DNA from: Escherichia coli
Lineage (GTDB): Bacteria; Pseudomonadota; Gammaproteobacteria; Enterobacterales; Enterobacteriaceae
NCBI RefSeq assembly: GCF_022846255.1
Contig: NZ_AP025682.1
DNA: 64,000 nt
Direction: 5' to 3' (one strand)
Shown: positions 15,001 to 18,000 of the stretch, piece after piece
How the letters are laid out: each line of letters opens with the position of its first letter
Numbering within the stretch: position 1 is the first letter of the stretch
Program-made: the position numbers

Positions 15001-18000
15001 GCAGCATCCGCGTGAATACAGCGGTAGCCACTGGTGCGTGCTGGTAAGTAAAACCACGCCCACGCCACAGCCTGGCAGTGATGAAATCAATCGTGCTTAT
15101 GAAGAAGGATGGGTAGGAAATCACGCGCTGGCGTTTATTGGCGACACACTTTCGGCAAAGGGCGAGAAAGTGCCGGAGCTGTTTATTGTCGAGTTGCCGA
15201 AAGATGAAGCTGGCTGGAAAGCGGCAGGTGATGTGCCGTTAAGTGGAACGGAAACAACCCTGCCTGCGCCACCGCGTGGTGTCGTGCAGCGACGTTTAAC
15301 CTTTACGCACCATCGGGCTTATCCGGGATTAGTCAACGTCCCGCGCCACTGGGTGCGCTGTAATCCGCAGGGTACGCAAATTGCGTTTTTAATGCGTGAT
15401 GATAACGGCATTGTGCAACTGTGGCTTATCTCGCCACAGGGCGGTGAACCACGCCAGTTAACCCATAATAAAACGGATATTCAGTCTGCATTTAACTGGC
15501 ATCCATCAGGCGAATGGCTGGGATTTGTGCTGGATAATCGGATTGCTTGTGCCCATGCGCAAAGCGGCGAGGTTGAGTATTTAACCGAAAACCACGCCAA
15601 TCCACCTTCTGCGGACGCCGTGGTTTTCTCGCCGGATGGTCAATGGTTGGCGTGGATGGAGGACGGTCAGTTGTGGATCACCGAAACTGACCGCTAGCTC
15701 TCAGTTTGCAGGCATTTTGGCGGGGGGAATGACGTTATTGGTTTCTTGCGCGTCGGCTTCGCTTTTTTCAACGCGCGAGCGCACTGAGCTGTCTTTGCGG
15801 AACACATCCCACGGTAGCAATATTGTGTCCAGTACTGCGGTAAATGGCATGTCGAGTATCGCCAGCGATTTTGTGCCCCAGTTGGTTTCATCGTCGCCAA
15901 TCATGGTTGCGCTGGCGCGGGTGCCAGGATACGTTCCTTCTTTCCCCCCGGTATGGGACATCACGCTGGAGCATCCTCCGAGTAATGTCATTCCGCTGCA
16001 TATCATGAACGCTAACAACACATTTCTTATCATAATAAATTCATCTGTTGATCGTGGGTGTTGGCCTGATGAGTTATAGCGATCCCTTGCTGAAAATAAC
16101 ATCATCATCTCGTTGCACTGTGGCGGTTATCGCACTTTAACGTTTCGTGCTGCCTCCTCAGTCTATGCAATAGACCATAAACTGCAAAAAAAAGTCCGCT
16201 GATAAGGCTTGAAAAGTTCATTTCCAGACCCATTTTTACATCGTAGCCGATGAGGACGCGCCTGATGGGTGTTCTGGCTACCTGACCTGTCCATTGTGGA
16301 AGGTCTTAGATTCTCGCTGATTTCAGGAGCTATTGATTATGCGTAACTTTGATTTATCCCCGCTTTACCGTTCTGCTATTGGATTTGACCGTTTGTTTAA
16401 CCACTTAGAAAACAACCAGAGCCAGAGTAATGGCGGCTACCCTCCGTATAACGTTGAACTGGTAGACGAAAACCATTACCGCATTGCTATCGCTGTGGCT
16501 GGTTTTGCTGAGAGCGAACTGGAAATTACCGCCCAGGATAATCTGCTGGTGGTGAAAGGTGCTCATGCCGACGAACAAAAAGAGCGCACCTATCTGTACC
16601 AGGGCATCGCTGAACGCAACTTTGAACGCAAATTCCAGTTAGCTGAGAACATTCATGTTCGTGGTGCTAACCTGGTAAATGGTTTGCTGTATATCGATCT
16701 CGAACGCGTGATTCCGGAAGCGAAAAAACCGCGCCGTATCGAAATCAACTAATTCCCTAAGGCCGCCTGGCGCGGCCTGACATCTCCATGCTCGCCGTCA
16801 GGGAGCATATGCGAATCTTCGGATTTGCAGGTACTTACTCGCTTCTTAGAAGGAGAAATGACTATGCGTAACTTCGATTTATCCCCACTGATGCGTCAAT
16901 GGATCGGTTTTGACAAACTGGCCAACGCACTGCAAAACGCCGGTGAAAGCCAGAGCTTCCCGCCGTACAACATTGAGAAAAGCGACGATAACCACTACCG
17001 CATTACCCTTGCGCTGGCAGGTTTCCGTCAGGAAGATTTAGAGATTCAACTGGAAGGTACGCGCCTGAGCGTAAAAGGCACGCCGGAGCAGCCAAAAGAA
17101 GAGAAAAAATGGCTGCATCAAGGGCTTATGAATCAGCCTTTTAGTCTGAGCTTTACGCTGGCTGAAAATATGGTAGTCTCTGGCGCAACCTTCGTAAACG
17201 GTTTACTGCATATTGATTTAATTCGTAATGAGCCTGAACCCATCGCAGCGCAGCGTATCGCTATCAGCGAACGTCCCGCGTTAAATAGCTAACTAGCTAT
17301 TCTCTTTGCCCCGCCATTCTGGTGGGGCTTTTTTTGTCTTTTTTCTTCAGCAATGCGTTAAATTTCGCCTGTTTAAGATATTTCGGCACGTTATTTCCCG
17401 TGATAATGTGCGCTATAAGGCAAATCTGCTTCACCGATTCAGCCATAATCCGTAGCAATTAAAATGTTATTTCAAGAGAAATGGACGATGAGTGATATAG
17501 CATTAACGGTCAGTATTCTGGCTTTGGTGGCGGTCGTCGGGTTGTTTATCGGCAACGTCAAGTTTCGCGGTGTTGGATTGGGCATTGGCGGCGTGCTGTT
17601 CGGTGGGATCATCGTCGGCCATTTTGTTTCTCAGGCGGGGATGACATTAAGTAGCGATATGCTGCATGTTATTCAGGAGTTTGGCCTGATCCTGTTCGTT
17701 TATACCATCGGGATTCAGGTAGGGCCGGGCTTCTTTGCCTCATTGCGCGTCTCCGGATTACGCCTCAACCTGTTTGCTGTTCTGATCGTCATCATCGGTG
17801 GTCTGGTTACCGCCATCCTGCATAAACTGTTTGATATTCCACTGCCGGTAGTGCTGGGGATTTTTTCCGGCGCGGTCACCAATACGCCAGCGCTGGGGGC
17901 AGGGCAGCAGATCTTGCGCGACCTGGGGACACCGATGGCGATGGTCGATCAAATGGGGATGAGCTATGCGATGGCGTATCCATTTGGGATTTGCGGCATT

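What the first reader, a model, noticed from the sequence alone, without database searches (positions are those of the whole stretch)
16208..16338. ibpA sigma32 promoter and long leader consistent with an RNA thermometer
Near-consensus sigma32 -35 and -10 elements precede a leader of about 95 nt, where a ROSE-type thermometer that occludes the Shine-Dalgarno at low temperature is known for E. coli ibpA. This is a layered transcriptional and translational heat-shock control element.
Basis: partly seen in the sequence, partly recalled or inferred. Interest (0 to 1): 0.3.

Follow-up and report, generated by a model that had tools for sequence, protein, structure and literature searches.

The report
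Known ibpA heat-shock promoter and thermometer
This is the well-studied control region of the E. coli small heat-shock gene ibpA: a heat-shock (sigma-32) promoter followed by a ROSE-type RNA thermometer leader. It is real and intact here, but ordinary and already described.

Summary
CTTGAAA (16208-16214), a 13-nt spacer and ACCCATTT (16228-16235) fit the sigma-32 consensus. It is the only such site in 64 kb, and both elements are conserved upstream of ibpA in 80 Enterobacteriaceae species while the spacer sequence drifts. The leader of about 93-97 nt forms three hairpins. Hairpins I (16243-16281) and II (16284-16305) are stable and supported by covariation. Hairpin III (16313-16329) is weak and pairs the Shine-Dalgarno AGGAG (16325-16329) with CUCGCU, which carries the ROSE motif U(U/C)GCU and a bulged G16316. 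Rfam ROSE_2 matches 16273-16345 at 96.6 bits (threshold 65), and RefSeq annotates the same 73 nt as ROSE in E. coli. The downstream gene is IbpA. Published work on K-12 shows thermosensing and a third layer, IbpA repressing its own translation through this leader. The only difference from K-12 is G16309 (K-12 has C), an allele present in 1111 of 5426 complete E. coli genomes. Verdict: already known, low interest.

The parts
16208..16214 (+). sigma-32 -35 element CTTGAAA
   Evidence: Matches the consensus 7 of 7. Every position is at least 90% conserved in 80 Enterobacteriaceae species. It is part of the only sigma-32 pattern match in the window.
16228..16235 (+). sigma-32 -10 element ACCCATTT
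   Evidence: Matches CCCCATnT 7 of 8, after a 13-nt spacer. C16229 and A16232-T16236 are conserved while the spacer sequence is not. Spacer length is the same in 79 of 80 species.
16243..16246 (+). probable transcription start zone (not mapped here)
   Evidence: Inference only. It lies 8-11 nt after the -10 element. Hairpin I begins at 16243, and strong covariation begins at the pair G16246-C16278. The published 'G71' equals the bulged G16316 only if +1 is 16246.
16243..16281 (+). leader hairpin I (stable)
   Evidence: -18.5 kcal/mol at 37 C in isolation. The inner helix is 92% paired, and 7 of its 9 pairs show compensatory changes across 80 species.
16284..16305 (+). leader hairpin II (stable)
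   Evidence: -9.0 kcal/mol at 37 C. It is 94% paired, with compensatory changes such as A-U to G-C in 34 sequences. It forms the first helix of the Rfam ROSE_2 model.
16313..16329 (+). leader hairpin III, the thermolabile SD/anti-SD hairpin. Anti-SD CUCGCU is 16313-16318 with bulged G16316. The stem closes with G16319-C16324 around loop AUUU 16320-16323. SD AGGAG is 16325-16329.
   Evidence: -4.1 kcal/mol at 37 C, the weakest of the three. Deleting G16316 in silico adds about 3.8 kcal/mol and locks the SD at P of about 1.0. The six pairs are 99.8% paired and almost invariant in 80 species.
16273..16345 (+). extent of the Rfam ROSE_2 (RF01832) match
   Evidence: 96.6 bits against a gathering score of 65, E 4.3e-22, full model 1-73. 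The same 73 nt are annotated as ROSE in RefSeq E. coli genomes.
16309..16309 (+). single-base difference from E. coli K-12 inside the leader (G here, C in K-12)
   Evidence: Seen in alignment A1. It breaks the basal C-G pair of the Rfam consensus, marked 'v'. The G allele is present in 1111 of 5426 complete E. coli genomes, including ST131 and ST1193. The position varies between species.
16339..16752 (+). ibpA coding sequence (137 aa), the regulated gene
   Evidence: NCBIfam NF008013, IbpA equivalog, 295.5 bits against a cutoff of 212. 100% identical to E. albertii IbpA. R93, R97 and K98, needed for self-repression (PMC10474464), are present in the translation.

Best explanation
This is the native ibpAB control region of an Escherichia coli-type chromosome.

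1. Transcription starts from a sigma-32 (RpoH) promoter, with -35 at 16208-16214 and -10 at 16228-16235. The mRNA is therefore made mainly when sigma-32 rises after heat or protein-folding stress.
2. The mRNA carries a 5' leader of about 93-97 nt with three hairpins. Hairpins I and II are stable. Hairpin III is weak: CUCGCU, with a bulged G, pairs with the Shine-Dalgarno AGGAG, so the 30S subunit is kept off at low temperature. As temperature rises the hairpin opens more often and translation increases. This is a ROSE-type zipper thermometer.
3. Free IbpA oligomers bind the structured leader and repress translation further. When IbpA is titrated away by protein aggregates, repression is relieved.

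Shown here: sequence motifs, family membership, conservation and covariation, and the relative stabilities of the hairpins. Taken from published work on the K-12 allele, which differs by one base: temperature response, loss of thermosensing on deleting the bulged G, and IbpA binding. Inferred: the position of the start site.
For: - Family match: Rfam ROSE_2, 96.6 bits against 65. Syntenic ROSE_2 hits above threshold occur in 10 of 20 sampled related species, all ending at +7 of ibpA.
- Identity: the leader is 100% identical to that of many E. coli genomes and 99.3% identical to K-12, with RefSeq ROSE annotation.
- Promoter: the sigma-32 pattern is unique in the window and phylogenetically footprinted.
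- Structure: 87.6% of cells are paired against 31.6-51% when partners are slid; the covariation score is 0.232 against 0.141 in shuffles (0 of 500 reach it).
- Stabilities: -18.5, -9.0 and -4.1 kcal/mol for hairpins I, II and III. The bulged G costs about 3.8 kcal/mol.
- Gene: the downstream gene is IbpA.
- Literature: the E. coli ibpA thermometer gives 4-fold induction from 25 to 42 C and carries the U(U/C)GCU motif (PMC3669281). Deleting G71 abolishes thermosensing (PMC2896394). There are three stem-loops, sigma-32 plus thermometer plus IbpA self-repression (bioRxiv 10.1101/2020.04.20.050740; PMC10410725; PMC10474464).
Against: - Nearest-neighbour folding does not itself show thermometer behaviour. 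With coding sequence included, alternative folds lie within 0.1-4 kcal/mol, and the predicted probability of hairpin III can be low (0.01-0.6) and can even rise with temperature.
- The whole-leader z-score is only -1.9.
- Hairpin III shows no covariation in this sample because it is invariant.
- No experiment has been done on the G16309 allele.
- The start site and RpoH dependence were not tested here.
Confidence: 0.95

Rival explanations
1. The leader is chiefly an operator for IbpA protein, an aggregation sensor. Temperature melting of hairpin III contributes little in the cell; the hairpins exist to be recognised by IbpA oligomers.
For: - IbpA represses translation through this leader in vivo and in a purified system, and weakening any of the three stem-loops relieves repression.
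- ibpA is induced 10-50-fold at 30-37 C by aggregation alone.
- A Vienna-based study found that ibpA melting is not significantly different from that of random mRNAs (PMC2896394).
- My own folds show little change between 30 and 42 C.
Against: - Reporter fusions and structure probing for ROSE elements, including E. coli ibpA, show temperature-dependent expression.
- Deleting the bulged G abolishes thermosensing.
- The authors of the self-repression work describe the two mechanisms as coupled, not exclusive.
- This rival is a matter of emphasis rather than a different identity for the element.
Confidence: 0.25
2. The functional low-temperature fold is not the ROSE hairpin. Instead C16315-C16317 pair with G16341-G16343 next to the start codon, and UCAG 16323-16326 pairs with UUGA 16333-16336. 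This would mask the start codon rather than the whole SD.
For: It is the minimum-energy structure for 16243-16345 at 37 C (-34.2 against -34.1 kcal/mol) and for 16244-16345 at 30 C.
Against: - Its inner helix is paired in only 64% of cells across 80 species and shows no compensatory change. The covariation score equals that of shuffles.
- The CGC:GCG pairs are invariant for other reasons: the anti-SD motif and the Met-Arg codons.
- Hairpin III is complete before the 3' arm is transcribed.
- Start-codon guanines are reported to be accessible in related ROSE elements.
Confidence: 0.04
3. The structured leader only stabilises the mRNA, through 5' hairpins that protect it from RNases, and has no role in translation initiation.
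For: Hairpin I sits at or near the 5' end and is very stable. A stabilising role for 5' hairpins of ROSE elements has been proposed (PMC3669281).
Against: This does not explain the invariant SD/anti-SD hairpin with its bulged G or the published translational effects. It is probably an additional role of hairpins I and II, not an alternative.
Confidence: 0.03

Closest known systems
Escherichia coli K-12 ibpA RNA thermometer (ROSE-like; Rfam ROSE_2 RF01832; Waldminghaus et al. 2009 RNA Biol 6:455, as cited in PMC10410725)
   Same: - Same locus (yidQ / ibpA / ibpB / yidE).
- Same promoter.
- Same three hairpins.
- Same UCGCU anti-SD with bulged G.
- Same SD and start codon.
- 145 of 146 bases are identical over 16200-16345.
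   Different: One base: G16309 in place of C. This removes the basal C-G pair of the Rfam consensus helix. The allele is common in E. coli (1111 of 5426 genomes), and the position varies between species.
ROSE1 of Bradyrhizobium japonicum hspA (Rfam ROSE RF00435), the founding ROSE element
   Same: - A 5' UTR of a small heat-shock gene.
- A 3'-proximal hairpin in which U(U/C)GCU with a bulged G pairs imperfectly with the SD.
- Upstream hairpins that are stable (description in PMC3669281).
   Different: ROSE1 has four hairpins; this leader has three. There is no significant hit to the alpha-proteobacterial ROSE model here; only ROSE_2 passes, and ROSE_3 scores 24.6 bits, below its threshold of 43. 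My recollection, not checked here, is that transcription of ROSE1 genes does not depend on a sigma-32 promoter of this type.
Short ROSE-like thermometers of Pseudomonas ibpA (PMC3669281)
   Same: Same gene family, a sigma-32-type promoter, and the same SD/anti-SD motif and mechanism.
   Different: The Pseudomonas elements have only two hairpins and a shorter sensing hairpin flanked by G-C clamps.
E. coli rpoH mRNA thermometer
   Same: It is a heat-shock translational thermometer, and it is also repressed by IbpA binding (PMC10410725).
   Different: Its structure extends into the coding region and masks the start codon. It has no U(U/C)GCU motif and belongs to a different RNA family.

Membership tests
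ROSE-like RNA thermometer (Rfam ROSE_2, RF01832) | Scores above the curated gathering threshold of the family covariance model over the full model length | tested here: met
   96.6 bits against 65, model positions 1-73 of 73, E 4.3e-22
ROSE-like RNA thermometer (Rfam ROSE_2, RF01832) | Lies in the 5' UTR directly upstream of a small heat-shock (alpha-crystallin) gene | tested here: met
   The match ends at +7 of an ORF that matches the IbpA equivalog NF008013 at 295.5 bits (cutoff 212)
ROSE-like RNA thermometer (Rfam ROSE_2, RF01832) | U(U/C)GCU motif in the 3'-proximal hairpin pairs imperfectly with the Shine-Dalgarno sequence, with a bulged G | tested here: met
   UCGCU at 16314-16318 lies opposite AGGAG at 16325-16329, with G16316 unpaired in the Rfam consensus and in the predicted hairpin. 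The motif definition is from PMC3669281.
ROSE-like RNA thermometer (Rfam ROSE_2, RF01832) | Two to four hairpins, with stable 5' hairpins and a labile SD hairpin | tested here: met
   Three hairpins at -18.5, -9.0 and -4.1 kcal/mol. Hairpins I and II are supported by compensatory changes.
ROSE-like RNA thermometer (Rfam ROSE_2, RF01832) | SD hairpin supported by covariation | tested here: inconclusive
   The six pairs are 99.8% paired but almost invariant across 80 Enterobacteriaceae, so there is no compensatory change to count. More distant relatives were not sampled.
ROSE-like RNA thermometer (Rfam ROSE_2, RF01832) | Temperature-dependent opening of the SD and temperature-dependent translation | not testable with these tools
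   In-silico folding is inconclusive and depends on the chosen 3' end. The behaviour is published for the K-12 allele: 4-fold induction from 25 to 42 C and loss of thermosensing on deleting G71.
sigma-32 (RpoH) dependent promoter | -35 CTTGAAA and -10 CCCCATnT separated by 11-15 nt | tested here: met
   7 of 7 and 7 of 8 matches with a 13-nt spacer. It is unique in 64 kb against 0.05-0.07 expected. Both elements are conserved in 80 species. The consensus is from PMC6699477.
sigma-32 (RpoH) dependent promoter | Transcription start mapped downstream of the -10 element, and transcription dependent on RpoH | not testable with these tools
   No transcript data were available. The regulon paper (PMC1522074) is not held in the library. 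sigma-32 control of ibpA is stated in the papers.
IbpA self-repression through its own 5' UTR (Miwa, Chadani and Taguchi) | Three intact stem-loops in the leader, and IbpA carrying R93, R97 and K98 | tested here: met
   Stem-loops as above. The three residues were read in the translation of 16339-16749. The requirement is from PMC10474464.
IbpA self-repression through its own 5' UTR (Miwa, Chadani and Taguchi) | IbpA binds the leader RNA and represses translation | not testable with these tools
   Published for K-12, Cedecea neteri and Vibrio harveyi

The most novel reading that the evidence does not exclude
The derived G16309 allele may shift the set-point of the thermometer, or of IbpA-mediated repression, relative to K-12. 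The allele is carried by about 20% of complete E. coli genomes, including ST131 and ST1193. It could act by removing the basal C-G pair of hairpin III. It could also act by completing an uninterrupted predicted 8-bp long-range helix between 16306-16313 and ibpA codons 15-17 (16381-16388), which competes with hairpin III. That helix is favoured by up to 4.2 kcal/mol at 30 C, but only for some 3' ends. This would make it a natural, lineage-specific variant of a textbook RNA thermometer.
Probability: 0.1. Interest if true: 0.35.

Novelty: already known. Interest (0 to 1): 0.08.

Why it matters
It matters little as a discovery. The ibpA promoter and ROSE-like thermometer are among the best-studied examples of layered heat-shock control, and automated annotation (Rfam, RefSeq) already labels this stretch. 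The useful results are these:

- The first-stage reading from raw sequence was correct, including its coordinates.
- Folding a thermometer at two temperatures is not a reliable test, because known thermometers can fail it.
- A common natural single-base variant sits at the base of the sensing hairpin and has not, to my knowledge, been compared experimentally with the K-12 allele.

Tried and rejected
- My first call to the search for related loci failed because I had placed the ATG one base too far right. The correct start codon is 16339-16341, and the start-codon columns are therefore offset by one base.
- A search for the reported sigma-54 promoter of ibpB, using TGGCAC-N5-TTGCA with 3 mismatches, gave 221 hits against 228 expected. 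It is uninformative; the one GG-N10-GC candidate, at 16673-16688, is no better than chance.
- The sigma-32 regulon paper (PMC1522074) is not held, so I could not take the mapped start site from it.
- I tested whether G16309 weakens hairpin III. In isolation it makes almost no difference, and at 25 C it is slightly stabilising through a shifted register (G16309-U16333, A16308-U16334). In longer contexts the effect changes sign with the 3' end. I rejected this as a firm claim.
- The alternative minimum-energy fold was rejected on conservation.
- The weak Rfam hits at 17202-17336 (Hrs1, anti-hemB, PrrF, ncS54) are all below threshold and only reflect the ibpB terminator.
- They could not change the verdict.

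Full report
**What is there.** The window around the finding carries yidR and yidQ (minus strand), a 305-nt intergenic region, ibpA (16339-16752), ibpB (16864-17292), a terminator, and yidE. This is the same gene order as annotated in E. coli. Both ORFs match the NCBIfam equivalogs: IbpA at 295.5 bits and IbpB at 285.8 bits. The 801 bases around the finding match 5418 of 5426 complete E. coli genomes at 95-99.3% identity. The 146 bases of promoter plus leader are 100% identical to many of those genomes and 99.3% identical to K-12.

**Promoter.**
- CTTGAAA (16208-16214), a 13-nt spacer and ACCCATTT (16228-16235) fit the E. coli sigma-32 consensus 'CTTGAAA [11-15] CCCCATnT' (PMC6699477; a similar form in PMC3669281) at 14 of 15 positions.
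- The pattern occurs once in the 64 kb, against 0.05-0.07 expected from shuffles.
- No sigma-70-like promoter is found nearby.
- In an alignment of the same region from 80 Enterobacteriaceae species, all seven -35 positions and the core of the -10 element (C16229, A16232-T16236) are at least 90% conserved. The spacer sequence is free but its length is fixed in 79 of 80 species. That is the footprint expected of a working promoter.
- The start site was not mapped here. It should lie at about 16242-16246.
- A published mutant, 'deletion of G71' (PMC2896394), corresponds to the bulged G16316 only if +1 is 16246. That would give a 93-nt leader.

**Leader.** Rfam ROSE_2 (RF01832) matches 16273-16345 over its full length at 96.6 bits (gathering score 65, E 4e-22). 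RefSeq marks the same 73 nt as ROSE in E. coli. The whole leader folds into three hairpins:

| Hairpin | Coordinates | Energy at 37 C in isolation |
|---|---|---|
| I | 16243-16281 | -18.5 kcal/mol |
| II | 16284-16305 | -9.0 kcal/mol |
| III | 16313-16329 | -4.1 kcal/mol |

- In hairpin III, CUCGCU pairs with the Shine-Dalgarno AGGAG (16325-16329). G16316 is bulged, and UCGCU is the ROSE signature U(U/C)GCU.
- Deleting the bulged G in silico adds about 3.8 kcal/mol and drives SD pairing to about 1.0 in every context. This agrees with the published loss of thermosensing.
- Across 80 species the structure is 87.6% paired, against 31.6-51% when the partners are slid. There are 188 cells with changes on both sides of a pair, against 69 in shuffles (0 of 500 shuffles reach the observed value). 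The compensatory changes fall mainly in hairpins I and II and in the two weakly conserved basal pairs; the core of hairpin III has none.
- Hairpin III is 99.8% paired but invariant, so it is supported by conservation rather than covariation.
- ROSE_2 passes its threshold at the syntenic position in 10 of 20 sampled species.

I ran it literally.
- For 16244-16345 at 30 C the minimum-energy fold is a competitor, and the ROSE hairpin has ensemble probability 0.48. At 42 C the probability is 0.61. The literal test therefore shows no thermometer-like opening.
- For the leader alone (16244-16338) the SD is paired at 0.98-0.99 at 30 C and 0.95-0.98 at 42 C.
- With more coding sequence the answer swings with the chosen 3' end.
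- The competitor's inner helix is paired in only 64% of cells across species and has no compensatory change, so I reject it.
- A published Vienna-based study reached the same general conclusion: known thermometers, ibpA included, are not separable from ordinary mRNAs by this kind of computation (PMC2896394).
- The test is therefore not decisive in either direction. The identification rests on family membership, conservation and published experiments.

**Mechanism.** Three layers are documented for E. coli ibpA:
1. sigma-32-dependent transcription.
2. The ROSE-like thermometer, which gives 4-fold reporter induction from 25 to 42 C (PMC3669281).
3. Repression of translation by IbpA oligomers that bind the structured leader. 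Repression is relieved when IbpA is drawn into aggregates. It depends on all three stem-loops and on R93, R97 and K98.

The window's IbpA has these residues.

**Difference from K-12.** One base differs, G16309 in place of C. It removes the basal C-G pair of the Rfam consensus. The G allele is found in 1111 of 5426 complete E. coli genomes, including ST131 and ST1193. Other Escherichia and Citrobacter species carry C, T or A at this position, and the basal pairs form in only about 60% of species. Predicted effects are small or depend on context. I treat a functional effect as possible but unlikely.

**Verdict.** The element is already known in detail and is annotated automatically. Interest is low.

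Noticed in passing
window 16838-16855 (ibpB leader; ibpB ATG at 16864): A second ROSE-like hairpin sits in front of ibpB: CUCGCUUC-UUA-GAAGGAG with bulged G16841, pairing the ibpB Shine-Dalgarno. The U(U/C)GCU motif is present before ibpB in 78 of 78 Enterobacteriaceae loci, yet no Rfam family hits it at E<=1. An ibpB thermometer is reported in the literature (Gaubig et al. 2011, as cited).
   Followed up: partly
window 16309: G instead of the K-12 C at the base of the sensing hairpin. The allele is present in 1111 of 5426 complete E. coli genomes, including ST131 and ST1193. It also completes a predicted 8-bp helix between 16306-16313 and 16381-16388 in the coding region.
   Followed up: partly
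window 16109-16155 (yidQ-ibpA intergenic region): Five substitutions (16109, 16110, 16114, 16127, 16155) are not shared as a set by any complete E. coli genome: the best identity of 16040-16199 to 5419 genomes is 96.9%. Two of the states match E. albertii, and one matches an Escherichia sp.. The source strain therefore seems to lie outside the sampled complete genomes, although its leader is identical to theirs.
   Followed up: partly
window 17174 (ibpB codon 104): T where ST131 and E. coli C have A, giving IbpB E104V, a substitution absent from those two references.
   Followed up: no
window 16760-16778: A G+C-rich hairpin with a 7-bp stem lies immediately after the ibpA stop codon, with no U-run. 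It may be a processing or stability element between ibpA and ibpB rather than a terminator.
   Followed up: no
window 16186-16193: A run of eight A lies 15 nt upstream of the -35 element and is conserved in Escherichia species. Its position is that of a promoter UP element.
   Followed up: no
window 17308-17336: The intrinsic terminator of the ibpAB operon, a 9-bp stem followed by a T-run. The sub-threshold Rfam hits to sRNA families here (Hrs1, anti-hemB, PrrF, ncS54) are terminator look-alikes.
   Followed up: yes
L052 (Cedecea neteri NBRC 105707), about 20 nt upstream of ibpA: This species has CATGAG instead of CAGGAG at the Shine-Dalgarno, and it returned no ROSE_2 hit at the gathering threshold. 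Its leader was nevertheless shown experimentally to be repressed by IbpA (PMC10474464).
   Followed up: no
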